Shown here in pieces: positions 11,866 to 44,419 of a DNA stretch of 64,000 bases. A model generated the notes under the pieces. It searched no databases and was not told the DNA's origin. It was given only the letters and a program-made list of their open reading frames with translations. The stretch's first letter is position 1; each line of letters opens with the position of its first letter. This stretch comes from the human T2T-CHM13v2.0 reference genome, Homo sapiens. Made by a program: the position numbers and the translations under genes. The stretch is taken from NCBI RefSeq assembly GCF_009914755.1, contig NC_060927.1; one strand, 5' to 3'.

Positions 11866-14800
11866 CTACCAATGAATAAAGCACCCTTAGTACTGCATGA
11901 TATAACAGCAATTAGTGCAATTATTTTGCTGCAATAATGAACAAAATAAAAAGTTACAAATATGAGACCCAACATTTTGGGATGAATTAGTACTTAGTAC
12001 ACTATTATTTGTAGTTATTTTCCCTGGGGTAAATATGCTGCATGTTTTCAGTTAAATAATAGTAAAGAGTTCTAGTAACAGCCTTCCCAAGGAAATAATT
12101 ATTGCAAGCTGTTCAAACAGAGTGACCAGTTCTGCTGACTGCAATTCTAACTGAATAGTATAAACCCCATCATTCCACTCTGCCCACACTCATATGCCTA
12201 TCATGGGTACACATGAGGGGAAATAGGAAGGGAGGGAAATGAGCGCATAGTCCTGATCACAAAGCATGGTTCTCCAGCTTTGGGGCAGGAATTGTTCAAG
12301 ACTTCTACATCTACTCCTCCTTTCTAGCCTTACCACTGCTGGTAAGAATGGATTGTGCTTGGGCTTGAGTTGGGGAACAGCTTCTAAGAACCATCACAGT
12401 GAATGATATTTCCTTCTTTAGATCTAAAAATGTGATAAAGATAAAACCTAAACACTCCCAACCAAGCCAACCAAGTCCAGGTCACTCAGGAGCCTACACA
12501 CAGACTTTACGGAGGAATGGCTGGAGAATTGGGCTCTGCTGATATGAGAAAATGCCAAATGCCATCAGTCTCCAAGCTCAAATGTCCTCATATAAACCTT
12601 AACAGGGAGCATTTTAATTTGAGGTACACAATTTCTGTGAACAGAGGCTTTTATTCCTTTATTTTCAAAGTGTACCTACACATGACAAAATATTTTCTAC
12701 TGGCTAGAGAAGAGTTTCAGCAAACAAGTATTTTTGGCAGAAGGAATAAATGTAAGAAAAAAAATTCAAAATGTCAAGGACTCACCTATCAAAAGACCTT
12801 TAAAACCACATGGCATTTTTTTAAAACAAGAAAAACAACTTGACTTTTCTGGGATTTGTAATGATCATGATGAATAAGAACACAAAGCTCCCCCCAAAAT
12901 GCAGTCACCTTTGGTCACAGCTTCTTGCAAAGGGAGGGTTGAGGGACTGGTGCCAAACCTCATTTTTATAAAATACTCTTTGCAGAGGGACTCTGTCAAA
13001 TAGTGGAAAACTTCAGATTCTGAGAATTTTACTCTTGGACTTTCCCTGAAGATTTCAAACATATTTATTTATAAAAGTTTAGTCTTTTAAGGCTATGAAA
13101 TTACTAAAAATTCTGAGGTCGATTCACCCTGCTTCACTAGTCATACCTAAGCTGACTAACTTACAATTACATAAACCGAATGACAAAAATTTGAATAATA
13201 ATCTCTCTATACATAAGATTATGAGTTTTCATTTTTTTTTAAATGAAGAGTTCAGAAAGTAAAAACTACTTTTGAACAGACACCATCATCTTAATTAAAC
13301 ATGAAGAGATCCAATGCTACCAATCTTTTAACCACACCACCAGTTATAGCATTTAGGGTTAAGTAGGCGGGAAATTTAAGGATGTTAAGAGGCTTTGCTT
13401 TCAATTACAAAAGCCCATCTGAACGCAGCCTTCATGGGCTGTGGTTGAGGAAATTATTAAGAACTGAAAGACATGACACTTGTCTTCATTAAACTGTACT
13501 TTGGCATTTATTATCCCAGTCACATGTGTTCAAATGAGCTTCAATGCTTGTAAGCAAAGCTGGTCTCAAGACAGCAACAAGGCTAATAAGTAAGACTCAG
13601 GCCCTAAGAAACCTGTAAAACCATGAAAAATCACCCTCTTAGCTGCAGGGTTCCCCATGAGGACCAAAGAGTGGTTACTGCAGAGAATGCTTGCTTTTCA
13701 CTCCCAGGGCCCAGAAGTCTAGCCAGCACACCCTAAATAATGGAGCAGGGGCTTTCTAGAGGGACCACCTTCCTCATCCATAGAGTTCTATAATGTTCTT
13801 CCCCAACAGGGAGCTAAAATGCTGCAGCTGCTGTTTTTTTTTTTTTTTTAATTGTTTTTAGCTGTTTGTATTCATTTTGTTAATGTGCCCCTGGGTTTTG
13901 AAGTCAAGGGCACAGTGCCACAACGTCACACATCAAATAGAACAAAACACAATGTCAACGAGGGAATTCTAACTTTCAAAGTCCCCATGTTCAAGGCCTG
14001 ATTTCTAAAAACCTCTGGAACCCCATTAACCAAAATGGGCCATGGAATAGAGCAGGCGATTATGAGATTTGTTAGATCAACATCAGTTACACTGAAAGCA
14101 CTGAAAGCCATGATTCAGATGTGCTTTGGCGAGTGCAACTGCTGAGTTCAGCGACAGTGCATTTGAGAACTTGCCATCACAAAAGTTAGGAGCGACAATG
14201 GAAAAGTTATCCTATGCTACTCTTCCTTAAAAAGCAAAAACGAAACAGCAAAAACAGCATCCCAACAAGCCTGCCTTGAACAACACTATTTTGGACTCCC
14301 TGTGAAAGAGGTCAGACTGCTTGCTTAAGAAGAAACACAGGTGGCTTGTACAGACCTCACCAGGACTGGAGAGATCTCAAAGAAGGGGCCCGAGAAGTGG
14401 TCTGCAGACTTCTCATTGGAGACATGTCAGACAAAGATATTCAATTCAAGAACAGTCAAATTTGCTATGGCTACCAGAACCAGAGACAACACACACAGAC
14501 AAACCACATTCATCATTTTCTTTTTCTTTTTTTTTTTCTTAAATATGTGACTGGGATACTAACAGAAAATGCAGTTTAATGTAATTAAATAGAAAAGCAT
14601 TACAGAGTGGGCACAATGAATTGAATAAGGACTTTGTATTCTATTTAGCAGTCATGCACATTGGTGACCAAGAAAGGATTTACAATTCATTGTCAAAAAA
14701 TCCTTTTAAACGGTCAGTCTTTTAAGGATGGCTGCAGCAGAACAAGGCAAACTGAATACTGGAATGAGATGGGAAAATCAACACCACCTAAAGACTAGTT

Positions 14801-15153
14801 TTGTGTTTTCTCTTGGGAGTCCCTCTAGAACAGAATTCAGGGTCTACTTTCATATTTTCTGCTATAGTGCTCTATCAAGAGCAGGCTGGGGTGGAGAACA
14901 TCACCAGACCATGCCCACAGCCAGGGAAGAGCTGCTCCCTACCAATTACCAGGGTTGGGCCCAGGGCCCATTTCTGGGGCAGAAGGGAGGCATTGCCCAT
15001 ATGGGAAAGGCAATATAGGACAACATGGATGACTTCAAACTTTGAATCTGTCATGAGAAAAGGCAATAGACTGTGGCCTACTCCTTATTGGAGAAAAAAA
15101 AAATGAAGGAATTTCTTAAAGTGGAAAAAAATGGTCTTAGCTCCTGTTTTTAC

Positions 15154-15318
15154 CTGCAACAGGTGTCAACTGCTGATTGAGCATCCCCATTGGTGTTGGT
15201 GGTGGCACCACCCCCATGAGAGCCCCCACAGGGGTGCCTGCTCGGGGAGAAGCACTCGGCTGCTGTTGCTGTGCTGCTCGCTCTCTCTCCTGCTGCTCAG
15301 CAACTTTAGCTGCCCGCT
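15154..15318 (-). CDS. PBRM1: PBRM1 exon E26 (165 nt, phase 1-1 cassette)
   Basis: tttacag|AG CGG GCA..., (E)RAAKVAEQQERERAAQQQQPSASPRAGTPVGALMGVVPPPTPMGMLNQQLTPVA; donor CAG|gtaaaa; 55 codons, skippable in frame. Confidence 0.93.
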
Positions 15319-17474
15319 CTGTAAAGGCATTTCAGATTTTCAATTCTGTTTTTAACCCAGGAATTCAAAATACCATCCATTGCATTCAACAGGACTAGTA
15401 AAAACACAGGCAACAGTTCTGTCTCAATGGAAGGAACAGTAGATGACTAGTCTCAACACAGGAGGAGTCGGGCCGATTTCACTTGGTAACCTAGAGTCCA
15501 GCTTTCCTATCCCATCTTGAGAACTGGTCTGCAAAGATTTCAAGAATGTTAAGACTGCAACACACATTCAGAAAGCACAGGTTTTATGTAAACACGTCAC
15601 CAGCATAACCACCATGGTTAATCTCACGAGGCACCCTGAAGATGAGAAGCGCTACCATTATTCTAGTATTAATAGCATTACAGATTATTTATAATTTCAA
15701 TATGAAGCAATTCCATGGCCCATTATAATTTTTGGTACAATTGTTACTTACTATATATATTTCCTGATTCTTTGTACCCAATTTTACTAAGATTTGAGGA
15801 CTCATCACGAGTGTCATGGAGTTTAGCAGCTGAAGAAAATTAACTCTGTAAGGGAAAAGTAGCTGACTGCCTCCTTCAGAAGGTTTTAGGGAAACAACTA
15901 ATTTCTACATTCTAATGAAGCAAAGAAGTCATGTTTAATAAACCCCAAAGGAAAAAAATGCATTATACTTCAGGCTACAATCATCAGAAGCAGAGAATTA
16001 AATAAACACGTATGTAGCAATGGACAATGTACTGAAAGAACCAGGTTTCCTGAAGCTGAGCAGTTCAATACTGACCATAAACCACCCTAAATCAATGAAA
16101 ATTCCAGAATCCCTCTTACTTCATTCAAAATGCAAAAAGAGCATTTGCTGTGGCAGTTCTGGGCCGTAGAATACATCCTGCTACCTCCCCACTCCCCGGC
16201 CCTGAGCTACTCTGCATCTCCAGAGCCGGGAGCTCCAATGATCATGTTTCCAGTCTTTTTGTGAGCTAGCAGACTGAACCCCTACTGAAGAACTCCTGAA
16301 ATGCTGTATTTCCAAAGCTCCCACCATACAGGGTTTCTTGTCTCACCATTCATAAATAGAAGATCCCCCCACTCATCACATAGGCAAATGGAGGCTGGGA
16401 GACAGGCAGTCACTTGTCCAAGGATAGAGAGAACCAGCAACCCTATGGCCCTAACTCCTGATATCACACTCCAACTGCCACACATAAACCCTTTAACATG
16501 GAACTCAACACCACTGATTTCAGGAGGGGGAAAATAGCTCGAGGTCATATGGCTTTACAGAGAATCAAGAAGCTACAGCTCCAGTCCTCCTTTAAGAATA
16601 TGAAAGTCAAGCAATCAAAGGCCTCTTGGCTGTGACAGAGTTGCCTGCATAGCCTTATCATCACTAAGACTGTCCTAGTTTACAGACCCTTTGTACAATG
16701 AGTATGAGAAACGAAGGCCATTTGAACAAACTATTTACTTGAGCTAGCAGTAAAAAAAAAAAAAAAAATCGACCTAGGGTTCCACTTCAAATTCTAGTAT
16801 TTTCATTATACAAGTGACACAGTAAAGTGGGAAAGCAAAAAAATGAAATGGAAAAAAAAAAATAAGGCCTGTGGATTGAATATTGGACTGGCTACCCAAA
16901 CTCTAAACTTTGGGCTTTGAATTCAATGAGAGAAAACATCAAAAGTTCAGATTTTATGTCTCAGGTAGATGCTGCTGAGTCATATAACTCCCCCCTCACT
17001 AGGTTCTCACTCACTTTCAGACTCCCCTTTGAATTTGGAAGGATGTTCCAGACGCCATCACCTCTCCCTCTCTTCATTCCTACTCCAGTGTTTTTACCTT
17101 CACAGTGTCTTCAGGTATCTCTCTCCTGCTCACACTCTAAATAACCAGCCATCCAGCACTGGCTCCATTTGCCTTGCTGCTGCTGCTGTGCTGCTCGCTC
17201 AGCAATATTCATGTGAGCTTGATTTTCAACACTCCTCCAGCTCAGTGGTGTAGTAGGTCTTAACTTTCAATAAGGTCAGAAATATCAAAGCTCCACAAAG
17301 TTCTAGGTTCTTATGGAACTGACTAGGGTTTTCCAAAGAATATTCTGCAAAATGTTAGTTCTTTAGGGTATTCATAGGTACTACATAAATACCTGGTCAA
17401 ATTTCAGAAAATGCCAGATAATATAAAACAGCTTATTTACTGGTGGTCTTAAAGCCTTTAATATGGGAATATGC

Positions 17475-17555
17475 ATGCTGTATGAAAGGAGAAAAGGTTA
17501 GCACTCCCCTTGATAAGGACAGAGGAGGCCCTTGGGCCTGACAACACACATACGG
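17475..17555 (+). pseudogene. RNU6ATAC16P: U6atac snRNA retropseudogene, 3'-truncated, no poly(A)
   Basis: atgctgtatgaaaggagaaaaggttagcactccccttgataaggacagaggaggcccttgggcctgacaacacacatacgg matches the 5' ~80 nt of U6atac; flanking repeat atatgggaatatgca / atacgggaatatgca; symbol from recollection. Confidence 0.9.
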
Positions 17556-18671
17556 GAATATGCACCATAAGTTTCCAAGAGAGAGAGTTTGGAATGCTTC
17601 TCAAACTGGTTTTGCCACAAAATGTTTTTTGGCTAAACATCTTGCAGGATTAGGATTCTTTGCAGAAGATCCTTGGGGAAGCCTGTCAGATAATTTCATA
17701 GTAATCAAATAATTATAATAAATGACCTTTTTTTTTTTAAAGAAGTTTCTTTGGAGACTTCAAAAATTTTAATAAAAGGGGCAGCCTAAATAATTAATGT
17801 TTGCCAGAAAATAATAGAACTGTACCCACCTAAGAAGAGTAGTGGTTGACCATTGTAGAGAGGAGCTCTAAACTGGCAAAATGAACCAATATATAAAATT
17901 CCAGATGGAAAAAATATAGCTCAAAGGGCAACAGTACTGCCTAATCTAATGCTTACTACTAATTTCTTTACTAAGTCCATGTCTGATATTTAAAAAAAAC
18001 CCACAAAAACAAAAACCCAACAACAAAAAACAAAAAATCTCAAGTATTTGTCTCTAAATGGCTAAGAACCACCAAATTCTTGAATGACAGCTCACTGCCC
18101 AAAGTGATTTAATTAGAATAAAAGGAAAATAAAGGCAGTTGAGCTTTATAAAAAAGACCCAAATACCTTAGAAGTAGCTATGAATACAGACACAGTATAG
18201 GCCAGGACTGACCTAGGAAACCAAGCACTTTAGCAAAGACTCAGCCTGAAGTTTAAATATATGGCTTACCAAGAGCTGTAACACAAGATCACTGATTTTA
18301 AGAGGCCCTTTTCAGACGAATTTTAATTAAAATTATATTTAACATCATTGTACAATAATTCCCTAGCTCAACATGTGTGCTTACAGGGCTCAATGAAAGA
18401 AAAAAATCATGCAATTTTTAGTAGCAAAATATTTTGGAGAAATTTGCAGGGGAAAATACAACACCAGGATCAGAGGCCAAGTCAGGGGCAGTGCTCTGCT
18501 CAGTCAGGACAAGGCTAGCATCTAAAATACTGGTTGGGTGCCATTTGGAACAGTCCCCAAAATAAAAGTTCATGTGCAAGTGGTAAGAACAAGAGTAAAA
18601 CCTGTCTGTGCGCGTGCATTCCTGAAACACCCCCTTGCTTCGAAAGACAGTTGTGCCTAGGCTCTATTTAC

Positions 18672-18873
18672 CTTCATATTCTGCTTTCTTGGCTGTCTCA
18701 AGATTTCTCCATTCTGTCCCCACCAGGCGGCTGAGCTCCCCGAAAGAGTAGTCTGGGTGTTGGGCCTTAATCACAGCCCTCATCTCACTGCTGAACAGGA
18801 TGTAGCCACTCATGTTGATTTTCCGTTTGGAGCCTTCCTTCTTTGCACTGCCTTTGGCAGACTTTGGGGTAGA
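18672..18873 (-). CDS. PBRM1: PBRM1 exon E25 (202 nt): HMG box
   Basis: cttacag|TCT ACC..., STPKSAKGSAKKEGSKRKINMSGYILFSSEMRAVIKAQHPDYSFGELSRLVGTEWRNLETAKKAEYE; donor AAG|gtaaat. Confidence 0.97.
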
Positions 18874-33446: not shown

Positions 33447-33604
33447 CGAGAATACATGTCATGGGGCAGGTTTCTTCCAGATTACTCAGAAATACTTCTT
33501 TTTTGTAGAACATTTTTGTGGGCTCATGCTCTGTTTCTTCTGGGTGAATGAAGATGGGGCCATAAAAATATGCAGCTCCATCTCGAACCCATACTTTTTC
33601 AATT
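33447..33604 (-). CDS. PBRM1: PBRM1 exon E22 (158 nt): BAH2
   Basis: cccaag|A ATT GAA..., IEKVWVRDGAAYFYGPIFIHPEETEHEPTKMFYKKEVFLSNLEETCPMTCIL; donor TCG|gtaggt. Confidence 0.96.
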
Positions 33605-44261: not shown

Positions 44262-44419
44262 CTTGACAAACATGACCACACACTTGCCTAGAATTTTACT
44301 AACTGGAACTTTGTTGTAATAGTCACTCTTAAAAACTTCTTTTTCTAGAAATTTTCGTGTAGCCAGGTGGAATGTTTCATTTGGTCGGTAAAACCAACAG
44401 CCATACAACCATTTTTCAC
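44262..44419 (-). CDS. PBRM1: PBRM1 exon E19 (158 nt): BAH1
   Basis: ttttgag|GT GAA AAA TGG..., (G)EKWLYGCWFYRPNETFHLATRKFLEKEVFKSDYYNKVPVSKILGKCVVMFVK; donor AAG|gtaaga. Confidence 0.95.

What the first reader, a model, noticed from the sequence alone, without database searches (positions are those of the whole stretch)
17089..17229. 'Shadow' copy of exon E26 ~1.9 kb upstream, keeping its 5' splice site: decoy or poison exon
Seen: several blocks match E26 on the same strand. 17176-17200 gctgctgctgctgtgctgctcgctc equals 15259-15283 at 24/25, CpG retained, and continues into agcaa. 17118-17130 tctctctcctgct equals 15282-15294 (13/13, displaced). Donor tgtttttacct 17089-17099 equals 15145-15155 (sense GACACTGTGAAG|gtaaaaacactggag vs GACACCTGTTGCAG|gtaaaaacaggag). 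agcactggct matches agcactcggct, and upstream gattttcaa 17221-17229 equals 15335-15343. Using the weak acceptor caag| gives a 120-nt phase-1 exon (17098-17217) reading AHMNIAERAAQQQQQGKWSQCWMAGYLECEQERDT*, with TGA at 17111-17113. Inference: an old tandem exon duplication, now a decoy competing with E26 or an NMD-inducing poison exon, possibly a mutually exclusive exon in other lineages.
Basis: partly seen in the sequence, partly recalled or inferred. Interest (0 to 1): 0.8.

Follow-up and report, generated by a model that had tools for sequence, protein, structure and literature searches.

The report
Decayed partial copy of PBRM1 exon
An intron of the human tumour-suppressor gene PBRM1 holds a real but broken, patchy copy of the neighbouring alternatively spliced 165-base exon; it is most likely a dead relic and not a working decoy or poison exon.

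Summary

**The similarity is not chance.**
- The 25-mer of E26 (15259-15283), allowing up to 2 mismatches, occurs in the 3.1 Gb genome only at E26 and at 17176-17200, 1.9 kb away on the same strand.
- The donor block is separately significant, p about 0.001.

**The copy is a mosaic.**
- Two blocks are 93-96% identical to E26: a core and the 5' splice site.
- The sequence between them is no more E26-like than random intron.
- Flanking intron shows no homology.

**Age.** Past the donor the copy reads G-K-N, as human-like E26 does. 24 of 29 more divergent vertebrate E26 ORFs read G-N there. It was therefore copied from a mammalian-type exon, not an ancient vertebrate one.

**Splicing capacity.**
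- It has an in-frame TGA.
- Its acceptor has almost no pyrimidine tract: 7/20, against 9-18/20 for annotated exons.
- Its donor is no better than 12 other GT sites in the intron.
- It is absent from the hub's RefSeq table, and no database protein carries its peptide.

**Verdict:** a real exon-derived pseudoexon relic. Decoy or poison function is unsupported and could not be tested here.

The parts
15154..15318 (-). Parent exon E26 of PBRM1. It is 165 nt (55 codons) and a cassette exon, and it encodes RAAKVAEQQERERAAQQQQPSASPRAG...LTPVA.
   Evidence: The hub annotation gives the exon. and one search give the frame. PMC11574163 (passages read) says E26 (165 nt) and E27 (156 nt) are cassette exons. 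The 54 aa are 100% identical in the best 120 database hits, all named ones mammalian.
17176..17209 (-). Core homology block. 17176-17200 matches 15259-15283 at 24/25. After a 15-nt gap relative to E26 it continues as AGCAA..TT, matching 15299-15307. In sense it reads ATTGCTGAG[15-nt gap]CGAGCAGCACAGCAGCAGCAGC, which translates as I-A-E-R-A-A-Q-Q-Q-Q.
   Evidence: It is direct-repeat family D1.
17083..17110 (-). Donor homology block. In sense it reads GACAC-TGT-GAAG|gtaaaaaca(ct)ggag, against E26's GACACCTGTTGCAG|gtaaaaacaggag. The 5' splice-site-like junction lies between 17098 and 17097.
   Evidence: 24 identities in 29 columns, local score 13.5, p=0.001 against 3000 random intronic segments; 20/23; family D10.
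17098..17217 (-). In T2T-CHM13 it is chr3:52,593,098-52,593,217.
   Evidence: One search gives the translation, with one in-frame stop. Coordinates were cross-checked.
17111..17113 (-). In-frame TGA. Any inclusion of this exon would place a premature stop far upstream of the last exon junction.
   Evidence: All alternative acceptors tried also give stops.
17218..17240 (-). Proposed acceptor region, ctggaggagtgttgaaaatcaag|. It is purine-rich and has no polypyrimidine tract. Several AGs lie upstream of the proposed one.
   Evidence: 7/20 pyrimidines at -23..-4, against 9-18/20 for the 14 annotated exons. One search gives the minus-strand view.
17118..17130 (-). Displaced exact 13-mer, equal to 15282-15294. 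This is roughly the piece missing at the 15-nt gap of the core, found 46 nt nearer the donor. It may be a rearranged patch or may be chance.
   Evidence: 13/13. One search gives p=0.055; it is one of only 6 hits of the 401-nt region in the whole window.
17221..17229 (-). 9-mer TTGAAAATC (sense) just upstream of the proposed acceptor. The same 9-mer lies 17 nt upstream of the E26 acceptor. If the two are homologous, the E26 pyrimidine tract and branch region is deleted in the copy.
   Evidence: It is not significant alone (p=0.09-0.28).

Best explanation
The stretch at about 17083-17229 (minus strand, PBRM1 intron 25) is a genuine but fragmentary DNA-level copy of cassette exon E26 (15154-15318) together with its 5' splice site. 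It was made within the mammalian lineage from an E26 that already had its present-day sequence.

Only two blocks are still recognisable: a 33-nt core and a 29-column donor block, together about 93% identical to E26. The rest was either never copied or has been replaced by insertions and deletions.

The copy has lost, or never had, a usable 3' splice site, and it carries an in-frame stop. It is therefore most likely an inert intronic pseudoexon. Its GT is just one more moderate U1-type site in a 3.35-kb intron. If it is occasionally spliced in from some upstream AG, it yields a transcript with a premature stop, which is noise and not regulation.

Shown: the homology, the mosaic structure, the weak acceptor, the stop codon, and the absence from the annotation and protein databases searched.
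Inferred: the age and the lack of function.
For: - **Homology is real.**
  - The E26 25-mer with up to 2 mismatches is found only at E26 and at the shadow in 3.1 Gb; the reversed-pattern control gives 0.
  - With up to 3 mismatches there are 4 hits, and the 2 others each have 3 mismatches.
  - The 17-mer occurs exactly 3 times genome-wide.
  - The donor flank has p=0.001.
  - The shadow is the top hit of E26 in the window and has the highest z (9.0) among 15 exons scanned the same way.
- **The copy came from DNA, not cDNA.** The match runs 13 nt into intron 26.
- **The copy is a mosaic.** Inter-block segments are no better than random intron (p=0.74 and 0.28). No intronic homology sits at offset about 1900. 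Of the 17 nine-mer pairs in the 1900-1999 offset bin, 13 lie inside the E26 region.
- **The age is mammalian.**
  - Read-through of the donor gives GKN in the shadow and GKNRS in human E26 and in the 2 human-like ORFs.
  - 24 of 29 short vertebrate E26 ORFs read GN(P/T/A) instead; 3 are uninformative.
- **It is not a working exon.**
  - There is an in-frame TGA.
  - The acceptor has 7/20 pyrimidines against 9-18/20 for annotated exons.
  - The donor scores 7/9, as do 12 other GT sites among the 194 in the intron.
  - None of the alternative exons in the hub's RefSeq table lies in 15319-18295.
  - 119 of 120 mammalian PBRM1 proteins join E25 directly to E26.
  - No protein shares the shadow peptide.
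  - The 201-nt stretch is single-copy, so it is not a transposon.
Against: - Uneven decay is odd for a neutral relic. The 5' splice site and a CAG/GAR-rich block that could act as an enhancer, the two best-kept parts, are what a regulatory pseudoexon would be expected to keep. One CpG also survives in the core.
- E26 is itself a regulated cassette exon with weak sites: acceptor 9/20 pyrimidines, donor CAG|gtaaaa. A nearby competitor could therefore matter.
- Better acceptors exist upstream, at 17263 and 17477, so a poison exon using this donor is not physically excluded.
- I could not examine cross-species DNA alignments, RNA-seq junctions, GENCODE or long-read annotation, or CLIP data.
- The protein searches are weak negatives. 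A stop-containing exon would rarely appear in predicted proteins.
- The dating rests on a few nucleotides and on unnamed database ORFs.
Confidence: 0.72

Rival explanations
1. Functional decoy or poison exon. The retained 5' splice site and the CAG-rich block bind U1 and SR-type factors. They then either compete with E26 and its weak sites, or are spliced in to give a transcript targeted by nonsense-mediated decay. Either way they tune PBRM1 isoform output.
For: - The two blocks that remain about 93-96% identical are the donor and a purine/CAG-rich exonic block.
- The donor is as good as E26's own, 7/9.
- E26 is a cassette exon (PMC11574163, passages).
- Any inclusion gives a premature stop.
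- Plausible alternative acceptors lie at 17263 and 17477.
- RefSeq lists an E25 extension into this intron (18296-18873, hub table). Partial retention or intronic polyadenylation therefore occurs here, which is the setting of decoy exons (PMC6097662, passages).
Against: - Decoy exons as described need both splice sites and are highly conserved (PMC6097662). Here the homologous acceptor has 7/20 pyrimidines.
- The donor is one of 13 comparable GT sites in the intron.
- No annotated transcript uses it (hub table).
- No paper naming a PBRM1 poison, cryptic or pseudo-exon at this place turned up (passages read).
- The copy looks too young and too scrambled to be a conserved element.
Confidence: 0.1
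2. Relic of an ancient (vertebrate-age) tandem exon duplication. It was once a mutually exclusive partner of E26 and is now decayed in the human lineage.
For: - It lies on the same strand and in the same intron phase, and its length is a multiple of 3 (120 nt).
- The 15-nt gap in the core is in frame.
- E26 itself is ancient, with the same boundaries in diverse vertebrate ORFs.
- Tandem exon duplicates hidden in introns are a known class (PMC9013439, abstract and passages).
Against: - An ancient duplicate would be saturated at synonymous sites. Here third-codon positions in the core are 7/8 identical.
- The intronic part of the donor block matches the human-type junction (GKN), not the GN type seen in 24 of 29 divergent ORFs.
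- No protein carries a shadow-like segment.
- 119 of 120 mammalian isoforms have nothing between E25 and E26.
- PBRM1 is absent from the text and from the 3 held supplement files of the human mutually-exclusive-exon survey PMC5740500.
Confidence: 0.06
3. An origin variant, compatible with the best explanation's view that the copy has no function. This is not a contiguous duplication that later decayed. It is a patchwork laid down in one error-prone, template-switching replication or repair event, which copied two to four short pieces of E26 (donor block, core, perhaps the 13-mer and GCCAGTGCT) into the intron 1.9 kb away.
For: - Blocks with 93-96% identity sit beside segments with no similarity at all.
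- One piece, the 13-mer, is out of order and corresponds to the 15-nt gap of the core.
- There are many indels relative to very few substitutions (alignments).
- There is no flanking homology of the kind a segmental tandem duplication would leave at this age.
Against: - The main blocks are collinear, with spacing roughly like E26 (77 vs 104 nt). That also fits a contiguous copy with later indels.
- The 13-mer is only marginal (p=0.055).
- The mechanism is inferred from general knowledge, not from any test here.
Confidence: 0.3
4. Chance resemblance of low-complexity GCT/CAG-rich sequence.
For: - The core contains (GCT)n.
- Two other exons reach similar raw local scores elsewhere in the window (22.5 and 24.5).
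- The exact 17-mer also occurs once on another chromosome.
Against: - Genome-wide, the only near-match of the 25-mer lies 1.9 kb away on the same strand.
- A second, independent, collinear block is significant.
- The comparable raw scores of the other exons are long AT-rich or poly-pyrimidine alignments of about 60-70% identity.
Confidence: 0.02

Closest known systems
Unannotated intronic copies of neighbouring exons (tandem exon duplication relics). Catalogued genome-wide by Ivanov & Pervouchine 2022 (PMC9013439; abstract and passages read). That paper cites a 2002 survey reporting over 2,000 candidates.
   Same: An intronic, same-strand, single-copy stretch homologous to an adjacent exon of the same gene. 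It is not a transposon, and it keeps a splice-site-like junction.
   Different: The homology is far shorter and patchier than their criteria: two blocks of about 30 nt, where they describe query-target pairs reported at 80% identity or more. The frame is closed and the acceptor is eroded. PBRM1 is not mentioned in their main text, and their supplements could not be opened.
Decoy exons in retained introns, such as SF3B1 intron 4 and OGT (Parra et al. 2018, PMC6097662; passages read).
   Same: A non-coding, stop-containing exon-like element inside an intron longer than 1 kb, next to regulated splicing events.
   Different: Those decoys are highly conserved, have both 3' and 5' splice sites (mutating them abolishes activity), and show junction reads under NMD inhibition. 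Here the 3' site is poor and the other features are untested.
Mutually exclusive exon pairs born by tandem exon duplication (surveys PMC5740500 and PMC8373072; main texts searched for PBRM1 only).
   Same: Origin from an exon copy in the adjacent intron, on the same strand and in the same phase.
   Different: Lengths differ (120 vs 165 nt), the frame is closed by TGA, and only about 60 nt are alignable. PBRM1 is not in these papers' texts, nor in the 3 supplement files of PMC5740500.
Ordinary intronic pseudoexons, meaning chance or relic splice-site pairs that are not used.
   Same: A moderate 5' splice site, no convincing 3' splice site, stops in frame, and no annotation.
   Different: Its donor and part of its body are demonstrably inherited from a real exon and did not arise by chance.

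Membership tests
Exon-derived intronic duplicate (tandem exon duplication relic) | Statistically significant homology to a neighbouring exon of the same gene, on the same strand | tested here: met
Exon-derived intronic duplicate (tandem exon duplication relic) | Not explained by an interspersed repeat or a simple repeat | tested here: met
   The 201-nt stretch is single-copy in the genome. The less repetitive 17-mer is nearly unique. No repeat-family annotation was available to me.
Exon-derived intronic duplicate (tandem exon duplication relic) | Homology covers the exon end to end, with both splice sites | tested here: not met
   Only the core and donor blocks align. The middle segment (p=0.74) and the acceptor side (p=0.28) are not distinguishable from random intron.
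Poison (NMD) exon | Inclusion introduces a premature stop codon | tested here: met
   TGA lies at 17111-17113 in frame. Every alternative acceptor tried also gives stops.
Poison (NMD) exon | The exon is actually spliced into transcripts (junction reads, enriched when NMD is blocked) | not testable with these tools
   No RNA-seq access. It is absent from the alternative exons of the hub's RefSeq table, and no paper was found.
Poison (NMD) exon | Functional 3' splice site (branch point, pyrimidine tract, AG) | tested here: not met
This is a crude count, not a trained splice-site model. A better AG exists at 17263 (12/18) and a strong one at 17477 (15/18).
Decoy exon (Parra et al. 2018) | High cross-species conservation of the cryptic exon | not testable with these tools
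   No vertebrate genome alignments were available. Indirect protein searches for orthologous ORFs found nothing.
Decoy exon (Parra et al. 2018) | Both splice sites present and required | tested here: inconclusive
   The donor is present (7/9 to the recalled consensus). The homologous acceptor is poor. Requirement can only be shown by mutagenesis.
Mutually exclusive exon pair | Open frame, same phase and near-equal length, giving an alternative homologous peptide | tested here: not met
   Lengths are 120 vs 165 nt and there is an in-frame TGA. No protein has the alternative peptide.

The most novel reading that the evidence does not exclude
The relic is not inert. Its inherited 5' splice site and CAG/GAR-rich block were kept because they bind U1 and enhancer proteins inside intron 25. 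Acting as a half-exon decoy, they would set how often the weak cassette exon E26 is included, or how often the transcript ends early in intron 25 (the annotated 18296-18873 extension). This would be an exon copy recruited as a regulator of its own parent exon in a major tumour-suppressor gene.
Probability: 0.07. Interest if true: 0.6.

Novelty: new member of a known kind. Interest (0 to 1): 0.27.

Why it matters
PBRM1 is one of the most often mutated genes in kidney cancer. Splicing of its C-terminal cassette exons has been tied to clinical behaviour, in published work that focused on E27 (PMC11574163).

A demonstrable exon-derived pseudoexon 1.9 kb upstream of E26 is worth recording for three reasons:
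- It is a candidate site where deep-intronic variants could create a full pseudoexon. The donor already exists, so only an acceptor is missing.
- It is a small, datable example of how exon fragments get copied inside genes.
- It is a cheap minigene test of whether exon relics influence their parent exon.

As it stands it is an ordinary relic and changes nothing about how PBRM1 is understood.

Tried and rejected
- **1.9-kb tandem duplication unit.** I looked for residual intron homology at an offset of about 1900 using blastn with word size 9 and a 9-mer offset histogram. Outside the exon region there is none above background, so this was rejected.
- **Transposon or retro-copy.** The stretch is single-copy, and the match includes intron sequence, so it is not cDNA-derived.
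- **Orthologous copies through protein databases.** Neither query gave a hit: the shadow frame extended into the intron (P0121, longer proteins) and the 94-aa plus-strand ORF over the stretch. This says little, because such ORFs are rarely predicted.
- **RNA pairing idea.** Inverted repeats link the E25 5' splice site (18667-18682) and the E26 3' splice site (15317-15330) to one intronic spot at 16549-16610.
  - The E25 duplex energy at that spot is only nominally best of 322 windows (-23.8 vs -23.7 and -23.2).
  - The E26 site pairs better elsewhere.
  - I dropped the idea.
- **Raw score as evidence.** In the baseline over 15 exons, raw local score alone does not single out E26; two other exons reach 22.5 and 24.5. 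One search shows those are long low-complexity alignments.
- **Literature.** Searches for a PBRM1 poison, cryptic or pseudo-exon and for PBRM1 exon 27 splicing gave nothing about this place.
Full report
**Setting.** The window is human chr3 (T2T-CHM13), and PBRM1 lies on the minus strand. In the gene's frame it encodes RAAKVAEQQERERAAQQQQPSASPRAGTPVGALMGVVPPPTPMGMLNQQLTPVA. It follows the exon that ends the HMG box (…TAKKAEYE). A published study states that E26 (165 nt) and E27 (156 nt) are both cassette exons of PBRM1 (PMC11574163, passages read). The 54 residues are 100% identical in the best 120 of 682 database hits, and all named ones are mammals.

- 24/25 at 17176-17200 against 15259-15283.
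- The exact 13-mer at 17118-17130, equal to 15282-15294 and out of order.
- The donor, 20/23 with two gaps at 17089-17109 against 15145-15167.
- AGCACT(C)GGCT.
- GATTTTCAA at 17221-17229, equal to 15335-15343.

The minus-strand frame gives HMNIAERAAQQQQQGKWSQCWMAGYLECEQERDT*, and the TGA lies at 17111-17113.

**Is it more than chance?**
- The local score of 23 was reached by 0 of 1000 dinucleotide shuffles (mean 12.3, sd 2.0, maximum 21.5).
- It is the best of 1264 window/strand comparisons of E26 against the rest of the window; the next best scores 16.
- The core is GCT/CAG-rich, so I also asked the whole genome.
  - The E26 25-mer with up to 2 mismatches occurs only at E26 and at the shadow (reversed-pattern control 0).
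  - With up to 3 mismatches there are 4 hits. The other two lie on other chromosomes with 3 mismatches each.
  - The least repetitive 17 bases occur exactly three times in 3.1 Gb, two of them here.
  - It is not credible that the only close match in the genome lands 1.9 kb away on the same strand by chance.
- A caution. When all 15 exons in the window are scanned the same way, E26 has the highest z (9.0, others 3.7-7.5). Two other exons reach similar raw scores, 22.5 and 24.5. Those are long AT-rich or poly-pyrimidine alignments of roughly 60-70% identity.
- Independently of the core, the donor-side flank aligns to the E26 donor region with score 13.5. That gives p=0.001 against 3000 random intronic segments of the window.

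Pieces that are not significant alone:
- The acceptor-side flank (p=0.065; p=0.09-0.28).
- The displaced 13-mer (p=0.055).
- The stretch between donor and core (p=0.74).

**Anatomy.** Reading the sense strand, the copy compares with E26 piece by piece as follows.

| Order | Shadow | Counterpart in E26 |
|---|---|---|
| 1 | TTGAAAATC | The same 9-mer, but 17 nt upstream of E26's acceptor |
| 2 | aag\| plus 11 unrelated bases | tgaaatgcctttacag\|AGCGGGCAGCTAAAG |
| 3 | ATTGCTGAG | GTTGCTGAG |
| 4 | 15-nt in-frame gap | CAGCAGGAGAGAGAG |
| 5 | CGAGCAGCACAGCAGCAGCAGC | 21 of 22 identical |
| 6 | About 66 nt with no significant likeness | About 91 nt |
| 7 | GACAC-TGT-GAAG\|gtaaaaaca(ct)ggag | GACACCTGTTGCAG\|gtaaaaacaggag |

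- The match runs into intron 26, so the source was genomic DNA, not a cDNA.
- The 201-nt stretch is single-copy in the genome, so it is not a transposon.
- No homology of the surrounding intron is detectable at the same offset. One search shows this, and so does. There the 1900-1999 offset bin holds 17 nine-mer pairs against 0-9 in the other bins, but 13 of the 17 lie inside the E26 region.

**Age.**
- E26 itself is old. A full HMMER scan of 1.84 billion representatives returned 33 hits, and 29 of them are short ORFs that read across the exon in genomic DNA of diverse vertebrates.
  - After the exon's last G, the two human-like ORFs and human E26 read GKNRS.
  - 24 of the 29 read GN(P/T/A)…, and 3 are uninformative.
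- The shadow reads GKN. It carries the human-type state at the exon-intron junction.
- In the core, 7 of 8 third-codon positions equal human E26, which is not what an ancient paralogue would show.
- I therefore infer a copy made within mammals from an E26 already in its present form. The ORFs are unnamed and the argument rests on few bases, so this is an inference and not a dating.
- At such an age a contiguous 200-nt duplicate should still align throughout, and it does not. Either several insertions and deletions followed, or the copy was patchy from the start through a template-switching repair or replication event. The out-of-place 13-mer, which corresponds to the 15-nt gap of the core, hints at the second possibility but is only marginally significant.

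**Could it work as an exon?**
- The donor AAG|gtaaaa matches the recalled consensus MAG|GTRAGT at 7 of 9 positions, exactly like E26's CAG|gtaaaa. However, 13 of the 194 GT sites in intron 25 score 7 or more.
- The proposed acceptor, ctggaggagtgttgaaaatcaag|, has 7 pyrimidines in 20. That is below all 14 annotated exons (9-18; E26 itself is 9). Several AGs also precede it.
- If the shared TTGAAAATC is homologous, the copy has lost exactly the stretch that carries E26's pyrimidine tract.
- Other AGs could serve:
  - 17263 gives a 166-nt exon with 12/18 pyrimidines.
  - 17477 gives a 380-nt exon. There the antisense of the U6atac pseudogene (17475-17612 +, Rfam 78 bits) supplies gctaac…ccttttctcctttcatacag|.
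- Every version contains stops, so any inclusion would be 'poisonous' by default, as for most pseudoexons.

**Evidence on use.**
- None of the alternative exons in the hub's RefSeq table lies between 15319 and 18295.
- Among 120 mammalian PBRM1 proteins, 119 join E25 directly to E26. The remaining one is an ORF that starts in the intron.
- No protein of 82-2000 residues shares words with the shadow peptide.
- No predicted ORF matches the 94-aa plus-strand ORF over the stretch.
- Full-text searches for a PBRM1 poison, cryptic or pseudo-exon found nothing about this place (passages).
- PBRM1 does not appear in the main texts of three surveys of exon duplication and mutually exclusive exons, nor in the 3 held supplement files of one of them.

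**Comparison with known classes.**
- The stretch is a member of the known class of exon-derived sequences hidden in introns (PMC9013439).
- It fails the tests for a mutually exclusive exon, because the frame is closed and the length differs.
- Under a crude test, it fails the 3' splice-site requirement of poison exons and of decoy exons. Decoy exons are described as highly conserved and dependent on both splice sites (PMC6097662, passages).
- Conservation, junction reads and protein binding could not be examined here. These would decide the matter.

**Verdict.** Decoy or poison function is unsupported, and I put it at about 10%. Interest is low to moderate.

Noticed in passing
window 17475-17612 (+) and 17393-17502 (-): The U6atac pseudogene (Rfam RF00619, 78 bits) lies antisense to PBRM1. 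Its reverse complement gives the PBRM1 pre-mRNA a near-ideal 3' splice site, gctaac…ccttttctcctttcatacag|, at 17477. With the CAG|gtattt donor at 17393 this would define an 85-nt pseudoexon. With the shadow donor at 17098 it would define a 380-nt one. The hub table lists no exon there.
   Followed up: partly
window 15136-15153 (-), downstream of E26: Reading through the weak E26 donor gives GKNRS* at once. 17 of 120 mammalian PBRM1 proteins end this way, matching the RefSeq alternative terminal exon 14557-15318. The donor region therefore doubles as coding sequence and stop in one isoform. More divergent vertebrates read GN(P/T/A)… there.
   Followed up: partly
window 16549-16610 with 15317-15330 and 18667-18682: One intronic spot is complementary both to the E26 3' splice site (13/14) and to the E25 5' splice site (14/16). 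Duplex energies are not clear outliers among 322 intronic windows, so this is probably chance.
   Followed up: yes
window 33447-33604 and 44262-44419 (-): These two exons have the identical length of 158 nt, one from each of PBRM1's two BAH domains (domain assignment recalled). They find each other in the exon-versus-window scan (score 20.5). This is the trace of an old internal domain duplication, which is already known in principle.
   Followed up: no
window 15319-15400 (-), intron just upstream of E26: Database ORFs from other mammals (P0001, P0122, P0142) read MQWMVFWIPGLKTELKIWNAF(T/A)E straight into E26. The last 70 nt or so of intron 25 are therefore nearly unchanged among those species, as is usual for regulated cassette exons. 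In human the same frame has a stop.
   Followed up: no
protein P0123 (representative library): This is an E26-containing ORF, 98% identical from residue 5. Its upstream part is unrelated to the usual intron, and it starts the exon at …LAEQQ. It could be a rearranged or second E26 copy in some unnamed mammal, or an assembly artefact.
   Followed up: no
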